From the IMG/VR virus record IMGVR_UViG_2698536414_000004: a stretch of DNA of 4,626 nt; one strand, written 5' to 3'. Both the position numbers and the translations under genes were made by a program. The notes under the pieces were generated by a model. That model did no database searches. It was not told the origin of the DNA and worked only from the letters and a program-made list of their open reading frames with translations. This stretch comes from a virus. Its lineage: Duplodnaviria; Heunggongvirae; Uroviricota; Caudoviricetes. The first letter of the stretch is position 1, and the number at the start of each line of letters is the position of its first letter. Below, piece by piece: positions 116-3,963 of the stretch.

Positions 116-3008
116 TAACATCCCAAACAGTGATTCACAGTACTTATTCAGTGAACAGGCAATATGCTACGCGGGAACTGAAAAGAATATAAACCAGATT
201 TATATTGATAATGAACCAGTATTAGCCGTTCCGGTCACTCAGGATGGTATTGTACCAAAGGCGAATATTGCCAGTAAGTATCAGGAATATCTACAACTTG
301 AAGTACGGTTTGGTGGCGATTATACCAGTACTAAATCTCTTGCAAGCCAATACGCCGGGCCGAAGTGGACAAATAAGTTTCTTGGTAAAGGCATTGTTTC
401 TGTCAGTGCGGTTATTAAAAAAACACAACAATCATTAGAGCAGAATCTTCTTGTGAATGATCAGTTCACGATGACTGTTGAAATGAAAGGTCAGAGAATA
501 TTAGACCTCGTAACAGGGTCAGTACTGGCGACGTCAAATCCACCATCAATTATCTACGACTATCTGACCAATACAACGTACGGGATGGGAATTGAACCGG
601 GATTAATTAATCTCGATACCTTCCTTGAAACCGCAGCGTATTGTGACCAGATGGAGTATTACGCTAATGGTTCAATTAGCTATCAAAGCTCGTACAAGGA
701 AAACATTGAAAATATCTGTCAGGTATTTGGCGGTATTATGTATGTACATGCAGGGCAAATCTGTATTACGACGGATCGTAAAACGCTTTCGGTTGCATCA
801 TTCAATGAAAATAACATGTTTGGTGCAGTACAGATCAGTACCAGCGGCGGCACAGACTACTTCAATACTGTTGATGCGAAGTACACCAATCCAGCCAGTA
901 TGTACACGACTGACGTGTTACGCATTCCTTCCGATATTACGATTGATGAGGCAATTCAGCGTGACGGGCAGGTTATTACCCTAAGCCGTGATTACTCTTG
1001 GTGCTATGACGCTGATGTACTGGCGAAGATGGTCAATGTTGATGTACTCAAGGCTAAGTACGCCTTACGTATTGTATCCTTCACCACAAGTGAAGGCTGG
1101 GATCTGAAGGTATGGGATGCGATCAACGTCAGCAATACTGAACTGAATATTTCAGGGAAGTTTAAGGTACTGTCAAAAGAAGTGGCAACCGATCAGGAGA
1201 ACGTTGGGTACGTTACAATCACGGCAGTTGAAGCCCCTGATGCAATGTACGATGGCGTAGATCCCGGTATCTGGTCACCTGGCGGTTCAATCCAGTTTCC
1301 CGAACTAAGCGTAAAGGCTCCCACGAACCTACAGGCAGTACGCAAAGGTAACACAACAAACGGCTCCCTTGTCGATCTCACATGGGATGCGTCACAAGAT
1401 CCGTGGCTACGGGGTTATTACATCTACTATAAGTTGAGTAGTTCCGGTACTTGGACGTATGCGGGAAGTACTAATACCCAGAAAACCGACTTTGAACTAT
1501 TCGGCCTCTCAGACACTGCGGCTTATGACTTTGGGGTTGAGGCATATAACAATCTCGGCCTTACGAGTAACAGACTAACGTTAACGGGATTAGTGCCGAC
1601 ATATAACTTTGCATTACCTTCCGTAACTGGTGTCGTACTGGCAAATCGCACCGTGGGGCAATATGAAACTGATTCTGCTGATTTCAATATCCGTTGGGAT
1701 AATCAGAAGAATTTAATCGTTAATGGTCGCTCATTTTCTGATTACTTCAAGTACTACACCATTAATATCTATAACGGTAGTGATTTAATCGATACATTCT
1801 ATACGCAGAGCAATACATTCAACTTTACGCTTGAAATGAACCGACTCAGAGTGCGTAAACCTACTATTGGCATTATTGCTCAGGGATTCAACAATGGTAC
1901 TTATTCACAGGAAGTACGAATTACCGTTGAGAATAAACAATGTGGATTAGTGCAGGGTGTTCAGTTCACTGGCGGGTTTAGCAACTTATTCGCCTCATGG
2001 ACTCCATCGACTGAGAGGGATTATGCCGGGGCAGTAGTGAGTATTGTTAATGGTACGAGTACTAAACTCTACACCAGTAATAAACCTGAATTTGACAGTA
2101 TACCCAACATTCCAGATGGAGAATATAAAGTTAAGGTCGGATTCTTTGATGTATTTGGACAGGACAATATTCAGTACTCGGCAGAGCAGACGGTCAGCAT
2201 TAACAGCAAATACCAGTTTACGGAAGATGATGCAGAACAGATTAATGGAATACTTGATCTCGATGATCGTCTGAATGAGACAATTGAAAATGCAGTTAAT
2301 GAAAGTAATGAATACACCAATACGCAAATCTCTACATTGAAAAACACGGTAGACGGAAACACGGCAAGCATAACAAATCTAAATCAGACTGTAGCGGATA
2401 ATGACACAGCACAATCACAGGCAGTTACACAGCTACGTAGTGATGTGAACGGGCAGATTGCCACGGTTAACCAGCAGATGAGTACAAAGGCAACTGCAAG
2501 CACTGTAGACAGCCAGTACTCATTGTCCGTCAATGCTAACGGTACTGTAGCGGGTATCCGTCTTGTTGCTTCTCAGGGAACGAGTAACAACAGTGCTATC
2601 TATTTCGCAGCAGATAAATTTATTGTCAGCGGCAGTAGTGCGGCGACAGTAGGCGGTACGGCTCCATTCTCAATCGTGAATGGTACTACCTACATCAAAA
2701 CATCCATGATTCAGGCGGCAAGTATCGGTACTGGTTACATCGCAGATGCAGCGATCACAAATGCGAAAATTGCCAATGCCAGTATTAATGCAGCAAAAAT
2801 TATCGATGGTGAAATTACCAATGCGAAAATTGGTGCCACGATACAAAGTACTAACTATGTTGCCAACTCTACAGGATGGCAGATAAATAAATCAGGTACT
2901 TTCTATATTAATGGATCTGGTGGCACAGGTAAGATGGTTATCAGTAATAACCTTATTCAGATCTACGATAACAATAATAAATTACGTGTAAGAATGGGGT
3001 TGTGGTAA
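102..3008 (+). CDS. Phage host specificity / tail tip (central tail fiber) protein, lambda gpJ-like, N-terminally truncated by IS1 (native coding sequence begins at 116; possible pseudogene or IS1-fused remnant)
   Basis: 968-codon ORF, stop TAA 3006-3008. Blocks resembling lambda gpJ as I recall it: GQRILDL ... YGMG (Y160 at nt 579) ... YCDQ; a coiled-coil-like segment followed by [10 protein letters not shown]...[11 protein letters not shown] (compare J VAGIGL...FLVAANRIAFI); [27 protein letters not shown] (compare J TIAENCTINGTLRAEKIVGDI). Three FN3-like beta-sandwich segments at about residues 400-700. The frame is open from the stop at 84-86 through the IS1 boundary at 115/116. The only start before nt 453 is TTG at 102, inside the IS1 inverted repeat, so the native 5' end is missing (roughly 100-130 codons by comparison with J). 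Confidence 0.85.
2754..2843 (+). repeat. In-frame tandem coding repeat, 3 x 30 nt ([10 protein letters not shown] / [10 protein letters not shown] / [10 protein letters not shown]) within the J-like gene
   Basis: The 10-residue period is read directly from the translation. Nucleotide direct repeat acaaatgcgaaaattg (2757-2772) and accaatgcgaaaattg (2817-2832), 15 of 16 identical, 60 nt apart. Confidence 0.75.
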
Positions 3009-3307
3009 TGGCACAGGGTTTACAATGCTGGGATGCATCTGGACGATTAATTGTCGATATTGGTGATTACAACATGCGGTACATGGGATCAGTCAATCTT
3101 AATGTATCGGCTGGTAGTACTACATCATGGAATGTAGCCTGGTCGGGTATGCGTCCAACGGGTTGGTTGGCAGTAATGCGAGTGAGTCAGTACTGGAATG
3201 AGTTTTACTGTATTCCGGGTACTAACGCTTTCACCGTTCAATATCTTCCAGTGAGTGGCGTTTATGCCCAAACATTAACATTCGATATATACAAATATGA
3301 CGTGTAA
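3008..3307 (+). CDS. Hypothetical protein, small tail-tip-associated module (about 99 aa); paralogous to the N-terminus of the next ORF
   Basis: ORF in the -1 frame relative to the J-like gene. ATG at 3008 overlaps the J stop (TAATG); an alternative GTG lies at 3002. Stop TAA 3305-3307. N-terminus [20 protein letters not shown] aligns with MSGFQVYNSAGALTIDSD of the next ORF. No signal peptide. Only weak G-rich Shine-Dalgarno (GGGG at 2996-2999), so expression probably depends on translational coupling. Confidence 0.6.
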   Translation: MAQGLQCWDASGRLIVDIGDYNMRYMGSVNLNVSAGSTTSWNVAWSGMRPTGWLAVMRVSQYWNEFYCIPGTNAFTVQYLPVSGVYAQTLTFDIYKYDV

Positions 3308-3315
3308 GGATCACT

Positions 3316-3963
3316 ATGTCAGGTTTTCAGGTTTACAATTCAGCAGGTGCTCTTACGATAGATTCCGATAATAAATCGGTCGTAATGAGTTCCGTTAAAG
3401 CAATGGGCACACTCTCAGATACAGGGTATTACCTCATTAACAGTGCTTTTGGTAATGGCAGTACGTTGGGGTATCTGCCTCTAAATTTCTTCCCCAATAC
3501 GGGACTACGCTGGTTCCAGCTACAGACAAATGGAAAGTACTGTTTTCCCGGCTCGGCAATGTTCGAGGCAGGTTCAGGGCGGTTCATGCTCTCCAGTAAT
3601 ACCACGGCTCTTACATCGGGCTATCTCGATGTGTATAACAGTGCTGGAACATTGATCTGGTCTGCTGCCAGTGCGGGTACAATGCCACGTATTCAGGGTT
3701 TCCTTACCGTGCCATCCTCTCATGATCTCGGTACTGCCTTGACGCTTACGACGAGTTTTGCCGATCCGTGGATATGCATTAGTCAGTGTCCGGGCAACAT
3801 ATCCGATGATGGCGGCACAGTTGGCTATTCCGGCATTCTCATTAAAAGGAATAGCAGTACTTCATTCTCTTTACAGTATGTGAATAAGAACCAGAAGGCA
3901 TATCGACAGGCAATGGGGAACAGCGGATTTCAAATTGCTTTAGCAAGTTTCACTGGTTATTGA
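3316..3963 (+). CDS. Hypothetical protein (215 aa), internally duplicated two-module protein; candidate tail-tip / receptor-binding accessory of unknown function
   Basis: ATG at 3316 preceded by Shine-Dalgarno AAGGA (3306-3310, 5 nt spacer); stop TGA 3961-3963. N-terminal GFQVYNSAGALTID is repeated at residue ~102 as GYLDVYNSAGTLIW (nt 3619 onward). Ser/Thr/Gly/Asn-rich, no hydrophobic leader. Confidence 0.7.
   Translation: MSGFQVYNSAGALTIDSDNKSVVMSSVKAMGTLSDTGYYLINSAFGNGSTLGYLPLNFFPNTGLRWFQLQTNGKYCFPGSAMFEAGSGRFMLSSNTTALTSGYLDVYNSAGTLIWSAASAGTMPRIQGFLTVPSSHDLGTALTLTTSFADPWICISQCPGNISDDGGTVGYSGILIKRNSSTSFSLQYVNKNQKAYRQAMGNSGFQIALASFTGY

What the first reader, a model, noticed from the sequence alone, without database searches (positions are those of the whole stretch)
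2946..3963. Recurring ~100-aa module with a conserved N-terminal motif: J-like C-terminus, ORF2, and twice in ORF3
Four instances of one motif are readable in the translations: J-like C-terminal end [17 protein letters not shown] (nt ~2946-2996), ORF2 start GLQCWDASGRLIVDIGD, ORF3 start GFQVYNSAGALTIDSD, and ORF3 middle GYLDVYNSAGTLIWSA (nt 3619 onward). The consensus is roughly [LF]Q-x-[YW]-[DN]-x-x-G-x-L-x-[IV]-D. ORF3 therefore looks like a tandem duplication of an ORF2-like module. The nucleotide sequences are diverged, so the duplication is old. These genes sit where siphophage tail-tip loci place receptor-binding or host-range determinants, but I do not recognise the module as any named family. 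A small, duplicating module family appended to the distal tail tip would be a plausible host-range cassette and is the least explained part of the window.
Basis: seen in the sequence. Interest (0 to 1): 0.7.

Follow-up and report, generated by a model that had tools for sequence, protein, structure and literature searches.

The report
Detachable receptor-binding tip of phage tail
The two small genes after the phage tail-fibre gene J encode the separate receptor-binding tip that clips onto a J protein lacking its own binding domain, a known but little-studied arrangement, and the repeated short motif is real and may be the clip.

Summary
The hairpin-like motif h-x-h-[YWF]-[DN]-x-x-G-x-L-x-[VI] occurs at the J C-terminus (nt 2949-2999), the ORF2 N-terminus (3017-3067), the ORF3 N-terminus (3322-3369) and mid-ORF3 (3619-3666). 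All four copies are conserved in about 80 related loci. They recur at the same four places in phage T1 and Burkholderia phage KS9.

ORF2 has one beta-sandwich module and ORF3 has two, each led by the motif. Homology between modules is detectable but weak.

The genes are not an unknown or freely duplicating cassette. They are the phage counterparts of F-type pyocin PyoF11 and PyoF12, described since 2021. They also correspond to the "bona fide RBP locus" downstream of gpJ in the BASEL phage studies. ORF3 is 38% identical over its full length to the homologue in phage IsaakIselin, which uses YncD as receptor. The 1+2 layout was the same in the roughly 130 loci I parsed.

J here ends about 20 residues after its tail-tip domain and has no receptor-binding domain.

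I did not find the shared motif described in the papers I read. I infer, without a test, that it is the docking element.

In this window the locus is a remnant: J is 5'-truncated and the segment lies between two IS1 copies.

The parts
1..115 (+). Right end of an IS1 copy, including its terminal inverted repeat. It interrupts J about 311 nt into the gene.
   Evidence: nt 1-~150 match IS1A/IS1B elements in thousands of E. coli records, and homology to J of strain 14EC007 begins at nt 116. One search gives the sequence. The orientation is judged from my own knowledge of the IS1 sequence.
116..3008 (+). 5'-truncated central tail fibre (J-like / PyoF10-like) gene. It has no C-terminal receptor-binding domain and ends about 20 aa after the Phage_Tail_Tip domain.
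   Evidence: PF09327 (profile positions 81-134 of 139 at aa 894-947 of 968), fn3 and Phage-tail_3; lambda J has PF12421 Ig_GpJ_C after PF09327, whereas the T1, KS9 and Bas10 J proteins stop 19-21 aa after it, as here; the full-length homologue in 14EC007 is annotated as a phage tail tip fiber protein.
2949..2999 (+). Motif copy 1: the last hairpin of J ([17 protein letters not shown]), followed by LW and the stop codon.
   Evidence: It is conserved as ..I[YF]D.N..LRVRMGL[WF]* in about 80 loci. The equivalent T1 and KS9 sites score P<1/3000.
3008..3307 (+). ORF2, 99 aa: a one-module PyoF11-like protein. Its start overlaps the J stop (TAATG).
3017..3067 (+). Motif copy 2 (GLQCWDASGRLIVDIGD).
   Evidence: z=5.2 and P<1/3000 with a PSSM that excludes this class. 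G4, W8 and D20 are invariant; pLDDT is only 56-61 here, against more than 80 in the core.
3316..3963 (+). ORF3, 215 aa: a two-module PyoF12-like protein, the candidate receptor binder of the YncD-associated family.
3322..3369 (+). Motif copy 3 (GFQVYNSAGALTIDSD).
   Evidence: second-best window of ORF3 (P=0.089); hhalign ORF2 vs ORF3-N gives E=3e-5 and then 2e-5 with the deeper alignment. G3, N8 and G11 are invariant or nearly so.
3619..3666 (+). Motif copy 4 (GYLDVYNSAGTLIWSA), at the start of the second module.
   Evidence: best window of ORF3 (P=0.038). SGYLDV..G.L.WSA is the most conserved stretch of the whole superfamily.
4000..4626 (+). Left end of a second IS1 copy (InsA ORF at 4055-4330). 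It cuts the locus 36 nt after ORF3.
   Evidence: the match to 14EC007 ends at about nt 3999, and the IS1 terminal repeat GGTGATGCTGCCAACTTACTGAT starts at 4000.

Best explanation
ORF2 and ORF3 form the detachable receptor-binding tip of a siphophage central tail fibre.

The J-like protein here has no receptor-binding domain. It stops about 20 residues after its tail-tip (beta-prism) domain. Receptor binding is instead supplied in trans by two co-transcribed, translationally coupled proteins:
- ORF2 has one lectin/Ig-like beta-sandwich module (PyoF11-like).
- ORF3 has two such modules (PyoF12-like) and is the probable receptor contact.

Together with the last residues of J they form one co-inherited specificity module.

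ORF3 belongs to the family associated with the TonB-dependent transporter YncD in Drexlerviridae. YncD or a related outer-membrane protein is therefore the likeliest receptor.

Inferred step, not shown: the conserved hairpin that ends J and begins each of the three modules is the docking element. In this model the three module hairpins (one from ORF2, two from ORF3) stack on the three C-terminal hairpins of the J trimer. This would place three unlike modules as a pseudo-threefold cap, turning a threefold fibre into an asymmetric tip suited to a monomeric receptor.

In this particular window the system is a decayed prophage remnant. J is cut by IS1, so it is probably not functional here.
For: **Anatomy**
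- The J stop and ORF2 start overlap (TAATG). ORF3 follows 8 nt after ORF2, with an AAGGA ribosome-binding site.
- J ends 21 aa after PF09327. Lambda J continues into the PF12421 receptor-binding domain.

**Folds**
- ORF2 model: matches R-pyocin fibre and Pam1 distal domains. These are the same templates reported for PyoF11/PyoF12.
- BFVD matches for ORF3 are 220-250-aa uncharacterised proteins of Acinetobacter, Xanthomonas, Pseudomonas and Proteus phages. I did not inspect where those genes lie.

**Homology**
- ORF2 family vs T1 ST32 family: probability 89%, E=2.2e-6.
- ORF3 HMM vs KS9 gp40: E=9e-7. ORF2 HMM vs KS9 gp39: E=1e-4.
- T1 and KS9 are named as PyoF11/PyoF12-homologue carriers.

**Synteny and co-inheritance**
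- J-ORF2-ORF3 is present in about 78 of 80 loci.
- Pairwise identities of ORF2 and ORF3 correlate at r=0.94. The last 40 aa of J vs ORF3 give r=0.88. Mid-J vs ORF3 gives r=0.73.

**Function, from the literature**
- PyoF11/F12 are essential, are found in particles, and co-vary with the last 60 aa of PyoF10.
- The RBP locus next to gpJ predicts the receptor, and IsaakIselin is YncD-dependent.
- ORF3 is 38% identical over its full length to the IsaakIselin homologue.

**Hairpin idea**
- The motif sits at exactly these four places in three diverged lineages.
- The hairpins have low pLDDT in monomer models (56-69) while the cores exceed 90.
- The tail-proximal part of the Oekolampad RBP is disordered when off the phage.
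- An AF2-multimer study found that the 23-kDa protein contacts all three spike chains.
Against: - No complex model or experiment for this locus could be run here.
- The stoichiometry is unknown. Published models used three copies of the small protein.
- The J copy of the motif is not significant on its own in this window (P=0.30).
- ORF3 vs T1 ST31 is only E=0.004. I could not compare directly with P. aeruginosa PyoF11/F12 sequences.
- 38% identity to a YncD-type RBP does not prove the same receptor.
- No partner exclusion gene is visible, because IS1 cuts the locus.
- J is truncated here, so nothing about activity in this genome can be claimed.
Confidence: 0.75

Rival explanations
1. The parts are the same but the stoichiometry differs. 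ORF2 forms a homotrimeric Ig-like collar on the J trimer, mimicking lambda's trimeric J receptor-binding domain. A single ORF3 sits at the very tip as the only receptor binder. The motif is then a trimer-forming neck in ORF2 and has no matching role in ORF3.
For: Matusiak et al. modelled stable homotrimers of the small Ig-like protein on the spike end and found it similar to lambda's J C-terminal domain. The 2026 preprint calls one protein the RBP and the others 'accessory'.
Against: The same study found that AF2-multimer preferred termination by the 23-kDa protein over the trimer. This model does not explain why ORF3 carries two copies of the same hairpin, or why three hairpin-led modules recur (1+2) in every lineage examined.
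Confidence: 0.3
2. The motif is just the first hairpin of this beta-sandwich fold, kept by common descent. The J copy is the stump of a receptor-binding domain lost when the gene was split. It has no special docking role.
For: The motif always sits at a module start. In lambda J a short hairpin-like linker (aa 973-1000) precedes the fused Ig-like domain. Module cores are weakly alignable.
Against: A functionless stump would not stay nearly invariant (..LRVRMGLW*) while the rest of J diverges: mean identity is 72% for the last 40 aa against 37% for mid-J. The hairpins are the least confident parts of the monomer models, as expected for elements that order only in a complex.
Confidence: 0.3
3. 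ORF2 and ORF3 are assembly chaperones for the J fibre and are not part of the virion.
For: Saha et al. originally left this open. Many fibre genes are followed by chaperone genes.
Against: PyoF11/F12 were detected in pyocin particles, and cryo-ET shows density at the fibre tip. The folds are those of distal receptor-binding domains, and the best solved match is a receptor-bound RBP. There is no match to any chaperone family in Pfam or NCBIfam.
Confidence: 0.07
4. They are membrane or moron proteins expressed from the prophage, as T1 ST32 and ST31 are annotated ('outer membrane protein', 'membrane associated protein'), for example for superinfection exclusion.
For: The T1 annotation and the PHROG category 'moron' for phrog_425 and phrog_1265.
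Against: Neither sequence has a signal peptide, lipobox or hydrophobic segment. Published membrane-affinity estimates for the homologues are low. The exclusion function in these loci belongs to separate small lipoproteins such as Cor and Rtp45.
Confidence: 0.03

Closest known systems
PyoF11 / PyoF12 of F-type pyocins and their phage homologues (T1 ST32/ST31, N15 gp22/gp23, KS9 gp20/gp21); 'Specificity Module 1' of Saha et al.
   Same: - Position immediately 3' of the central fibre gene.
- Sizes of about 100 aa and about 215-240 aa.
- One plus two Ig-like modules.
- A fibre without its own receptor-binding domain.
- Folds like R-pyocin and Pam1 distal domains.
- Co-variation with the fibre's last residues.
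- Detectable profile homology of ORF2 to T1 ST32 and of ORF3 to KS9 gp40.

   Different: - The PHROG families differ: 7961/4524 here, 557/425 in T1.
- ORF3 vs T1 ST31 is barely detectable by sequence.
- The probable receptor is an outer-membrane protein, whereas for pyocins the papers I read link killing spectrum to LPS and O-serotype.
- I could not compare directly with the P. aeruginosa proteins.
'Bona fide RBP loci' next to gpJ in Drexlerviridae, Dhillonvirus and Queuovirinae (BASEL collection), YncD-associated allele (IsaakIselin bas10_0026/0025)
   Same: - The same protein pair: 101 aa with MPGLQAWDASG.., and 217 aa with both motifs.
- ORF3 is 38% identical over 100% of its length.
- The same PHROGs.
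- J ends ..VYDGNGVLRVRMGLF*.

   Different: - In IsaakIselin the pair is transcribed convergently towards J and is followed by a 110-aa signal-peptide protein.
- Here the pair is co-oriented with J in a temperate lambdoid-type context, as in HK639, and the downstream gene is lost to IS1.
Oekolampad / Rtp44 LptD-binding RBP (Pfam DUF6453, PDB 9rpt)
   Same: - Encoded next to an RBD-less J.
- Acts as a monomer on a monomeric outer-membrane protein.
- Rtp44 is about 311 aa, about the summed length of ORF2 and ORF3, and has motif-like hairpins (residue 211, P=0.0013).

   Different: - It is a single chain rather than two.
- No DUF6453 sequence match.
- The number of motif-like hairpins in Rtp44 is ambiguous (residues 4, 76, 115, 210), so 'three fused modules' is not established.
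Lambda J C-terminal receptor-binding domain (Pfam PF12421 Ig_GpJ_C)
   Same: An Ig-like distal domain at the end of the same kind of fibre, and it determines the receptor. Others report structural similarity of the small downstream proteins to it.
T5 pb5 on the pb4 fibre
   Same: A separate monomeric receptor-binding protein on a trimeric central fibre, with a partner exclusion lipoprotein; the analogy is drawn.
   Different: Unrelated sequence and fold, and one protein rather than two. I did not test this here beyond the absence of hits.

Membership tests
PyoF11/PyoF12 module (Saha et al.) | Gene pair lies immediately 3' of the central fibre (J/PyoF10) gene | tested here: met
   Window: J stop at 3006-3008, ORF2 at 3008, ORF3 at 3316. 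The same order is found in about 78 of 80 loci and in HK639, T1 and KS9.
PyoF11/PyoF12 module (Saha et al.) | Small protein with one Ig-like domain, larger protein with two | tested here: met
   The AF2 models show one sandwich in ORF2 and two in ORF3. This matches the description.
PyoF11/PyoF12 module (Saha et al.) | Sequence homology to the family (HMM level) | tested here: inconclusive
   Against phage members named by the authors:
- ORF2 vs T1 ST32 family: probability 89%, E=2.2e-6.
- ORF3 vs T1 ST31: E=0.004.
- ORF3 HMM vs KS9 gp40: E=9e-7. ORF2 HMM vs KS9 gp39: E=1e-4 (single-comparison E-values).

PyoF11/PyoF12 module (Saha et al.) | Central fibre lacks its own receptor-binding domain | tested here: met
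   J ends 21 aa after PF09327. Lambda J has PF12421 after it.
PyoF11/PyoF12 module (Saha et al.) | Folds resemble R-pyocin fibre and Pam1 receptor-binding domains | tested here: met
   [not shown]
PyoF11/PyoF12 module (Saha et al.) | Co-variation with the last residues of the fibre | tested here: met
   J last 40 aa vs ORF3: r=0.88. Mid-J vs ORF3: r=0.73. This is weak evidence, because physical linkage alone contributes to the correlation.
PyoF11/PyoF12 module (Saha et al.) | Proteins present in the particle and essential for activity | not testable with these tools
   Known only for pyocins.
BASEL YncD-type RBP family | [quoted passage not shown] | tested here: met
   38.2% identity over residues 1-215 to IsaakIselin. 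The criterion comes, and the YncD dependence.
BASEL YncD-type RBP family | Infection depends on YncD | not testable with these tools
   No phage or host data exist for this allele.
BASEL YncD-type RBP family | Adjacent partner exclusion or accessory gene | tested here: inconclusive
   IS1 starts 36 nt after ORF3. In 14EC007 a 90-aa ORF follows; I did not analyse it.
DUF6453 (Rtp44/Oekolampad LptD RBP) | Match to Pfam PF20051 | tested here: not met
   ORF2 and ORF3 have no Pfam hit at E<=1. Rtp44 matches at 1e-113. The similarity is by fold only.
Lambda J C-terminal RBD (PF12421) | Match to Pfam PF12421 | tested here: not met
   No hit for ORF2, ORF3 or the J end. Lambda J matches at 4.5e-74.

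The most novel reading that the evidence does not exclude
The hairpin motif is a universal docking code for split tail tips.
- The trimeric J fibre ends in three identical hairpins.
- Exactly three hairpin-led modules, one in the PyoF11-like protein and two in the PyoF12-like protein, add the next layer of the fibre's beta-prism.
- The cap would solve the mismatch between a threefold fibre and a monomeric receptor.
- It would also explain the fixed 1+2 layout.
- Single-chain RBPs such as Rtp44 would be the fused version.
- The J tail plus the hairpins would then be the minimal unit to swap when re-targeting such phages or pyocins.
Probability: 0.3. Interest if true: 0.6.

Novelty: new member of a known kind. 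Interest (0 to 1): 0.35.

Why it matters
This locus type decides which outer-membrane protein a large group of siphophages and F-type pyocins attack. How the separate tip proteins attach to the fibre has not been shown experimentally.

A short conserved hairpin shared by the fibre end and each tip module gives a concrete, mutable element to test. If it is the clip, it sets the boundaries for swapping receptor specificity between phages or pyocins.

For this window itself the result is modest. It is an allele of a described system, sitting in an IS1-bracketed prophage remnant.

Tried and rejected
- **Pairwise BLASTP between ORF2, ORF3-N and ORF3-C** found only the 10-12-residue motif. The first shallow profiles did no better. 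Deeper profiles were needed.
- **Pfam, NCBIfam and PDB sequence searches** gave nothing for ORF2 or ORF3. The precomputed Pfam PF28254 on ORF3 homologues is absent from the local Pfam copy and from the paper library, so I could not learn its name.
- **A narrow ORF2-only PSSM** failed to pick up the J copy. I replaced it with leave-one-class-out PSSMs.
- **"Rtp44 = three fused modules".** This looked attractive from length and by eye. HMM hits, however, point to motif-like sites at residues 75-94 as well as 210-241, so the module count is ambiguous and I do not claim it.
- **Lambda J's linker before its RBD** only loosely resembles the motif. I do not use it as evidence.
- **Distant representatives of the ORF3 family** carried no informative names, so I obtained no direct link to Pseudomonas that way.
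- **Apparent loss of ORF2 in some loci** was a parsing error in five of the seven loci I rechecked.
- **The J Virol 2023 FhuA paper** treats J itself as the RBP and did not help.
- **Structure jobs** were exhausted, so no complex or J-end model could be made.

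
Full report
**What is in the window.**
- A long + strand ORF ending at 3008 is a J-like central tail fibre. It carries Phage-tail_3, fn3 and PF09327 Phage_Tail_Tip domains.
- ORF2 starts at the ATG at 3008, overlapping the J stop as TAATG, and encodes 99 aa.
- ORF3 (3316-3963, 215 aa) follows 8 nt later behind an AAGGA ribosome-binding site.
- Nucleotides 1-115 are the right end of an IS1. 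A second IS1 in the same orientation starts at 4000.
- J therefore lacks about 105 N-terminal codons, and the 3.9-kb piece is bracketed by IS1.
- Only one of 5426 complete E. coli genomes (strain 14EC007) carries the same ORF2-ORF3 DNA. There it sits in a prophage remnant without these IS1 copies.

**Checking the observation.**
- The four motif copies are present at nt 2949-2999, 3017-3067, 3322-3369 and 3619-3666.
- I built position-specific scoring matrices from family alignments, leaving out the class being tested, and compared scores with shuffled sequences:
  - The ORF2 copy is highly significant (z=5.2; 0 of 3000 shuffles reached it).
  - The two best windows in ORF3 are exactly the two predicted sites (P=0.038 and 0.089).
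  - The J copy is the best of 955 windows but is not significant on score alone (P=0.30).
- Conservation settles the matter. In 80 related viral contigs all four copies are kept, and J ends ..LRVRMGL[WF]*.
- The same matrix, built only from this enterobacterial family, finds the motif at the same places in other lineages:
  - Phage T1: J end P<1/3000; ST31 residue 113 P=0.0013. ST32's N-terminus is P=0.29 with this matrix, and P=0.005 with the ORF2-only matrix. ST31's N-terminus is readable by eye but is not a top hit.
  - Burkholderia phage KS9: three sites P<1/3000 and the fourth P=0.045.
  - About 35 distinct T1-type loci also show all four copies.
- There is no DNA-level repeat.

**Is it a recurring module?**
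- The AlphaFold2 models are confident: ORF3 pLDDT 90.4, ORF2 pLDDT 81.4.
- They show one beta sandwich in ORF2 and two in ORF3.
- ORF2 and the second ORF3 module both run as hairpin, short helix, long strand.
- The two models hit the same solved structures: the Oekolampad RBP 9rpt_C, the Pam1 and LKA1 tailspike distal domains, the AP22 fibre and discoidin.
- At sequence level:
  - The ORF3 HMM matches ORF2 residues 1-76 at E=8.7e-6.
  - ORF2 family vs the ORF3 C-module aligns over 74 columns at E=0.0014.
  - The C-module of HK639 gp25 hits the ORF2-like phrog_2427 at E=4.7e-4.
  - In T1, ST32 aligns with the C-module of ST31 over 91 columns at E=1.3e-4.
- The modules are therefore probably homologous, but beyond the motif the signal is weak.

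**What the genes are.**
- The literature already covers this locus type.
  - Saha et al. defined PyoF11 and PyoF12. The two genes always lie immediately 3' of the central fibre gene and are essential for F-type pyocin killing. [quoted passage not shown]
  - Two 2026 structural papers report that the pyocin fibre lacks a receptor-binding domain. They report one Ig-like domain in PyoF11 and two in PyoF12. AlphaFold3 places both proteins at the fibre end, with folds like R-pyocin and Pam1 binding domains.
  - The BASEL studies showed that the locus next to gpJ predicts the terminal receptor. IsaakIselin needs YncD.
  - Matusiak et al. modelled a small Ig-like protein and a 23-kDa "hand-like" protein on RBD-less spikes.
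- My tests place ORF2 and ORF3 in this group.
  - J ends 21 aa after PF09327, like the T1, KS9 and IsaakIselin J proteins. Lambda J continues into PF12421.
  - ORF2 vs the T1 ST32 family gives probability 89%, E=2.2e-6.
  - The ORF3 HMM vs KS9 gp40 gives E=9e-7.
  - ORF3 is 38% identical over its full length to the IsaakIselin protein and shares its PHROG.
  - HK639 has the same three genes.
  - No member has a solved structure by sequence search.

**How it most likely works.**
- Shown or well supported:
  - J provides the fibre but no binding domain.
  - ORF2 and ORF3 are co-inherited with the J end. ORF2 vs ORF3 gives r=0.94; the last 40 aa of J vs ORF3 gives r=0.88; mid-J vs ORF3 gives r=0.73.
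  - They have the folds of distal binding domains.
- From the literature on homologues: the proteins are in the particle, are essential and set specificity.
- Inferred: the shared hairpin is the attachment element. In support:
  - It sits at the fibre end and at each module start in three diverged lineages.
  - The last 40 aa of J, which include it, are far better conserved than mid-J (72% vs 37% mean identity).
  - The hairpins are the least confident parts of the monomer models, pLDDT 56-69.
  - The tail-proximal part of the Oekolampad RBP is disordered off the phage.
- The count of three hairpin-led modules against three J chains suggests a pseudo-threefold cap at 3:1:1. A 3:3:1 arrangement with an ORF2 trimer is a live rival.
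- The receptor is most likely YncD or a similar outer-membrane protein. At 38% identity this is only a lead.

**Verdict.**
- The module is not unknown and does not vary in copy number. The 1+2 layout is fixed in about 130 loci.
- I did not find the shared hairpin motif or the three-module reading in the papers I could read. That is the only potentially new element, and it is untested.
- The locus in this window is an IS1-damaged remnant.
- Novelty: a new member of a known kind. Interest: modest.

Noticed in passing
window 1-115 and 4000-4626: Two IS1 copies in the same orientation bracket the 3.9-kb piece that carries the 5'-truncated J, ORF2 and ORF3. The layout resembles a composite transposon, though it could be two independent insertions. 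The closest E. coli genome (14EC007) has the segment without these IS1 copies.
   Followed up: partly
window ~2202-2545 (J aa ~701-815): An N/Q/T-rich, heptad-like stretch just upstream of the tail-tip domain. It resembles the coiled-coil segment reported to switch to a beta-prism in the F7 pyocin fibre and predicted for the HK639 fibre. I did not test coiled-coil propensity.
   Followed up: no
window 3000-3005; L002, L003, L004, L005, L139 J ends: Every RBD-less J examined ends with G-x-[W/F] at or next to the C-terminus: GLW, GLF, GSW, GVF, GTF, GRWA. This may be a terminal aromatic anchor.
   Followed up: no
L001 13102-13374 (14EC007): A 90-aa hypothetical ORF directly follows ORF3 in the intact relative, at the spot where IS1 sits in this window. 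IsaakIselin has a 110-aa signal-peptide protein (phrog_25729) in the same place. Either could be the partner exclusion protein.
   Followed up: no
L016 and L084: In two of the 80 related viral contigs, tblastn found no ORF2 upstream of the ORF3 homologue. L084 keeps only a C-terminal ORF2 fragment.
   Followed up: no
L003 4687-6061 vs 6094-9672: In IsaakIselin the ORF2-like and ORF3-like pair is transcribed towards J (convergent). In this window, HK639, T1 and KS9 it is co-oriented with J. The module has therefore been inverted as a unit in some lineages.
   Followed up: partly
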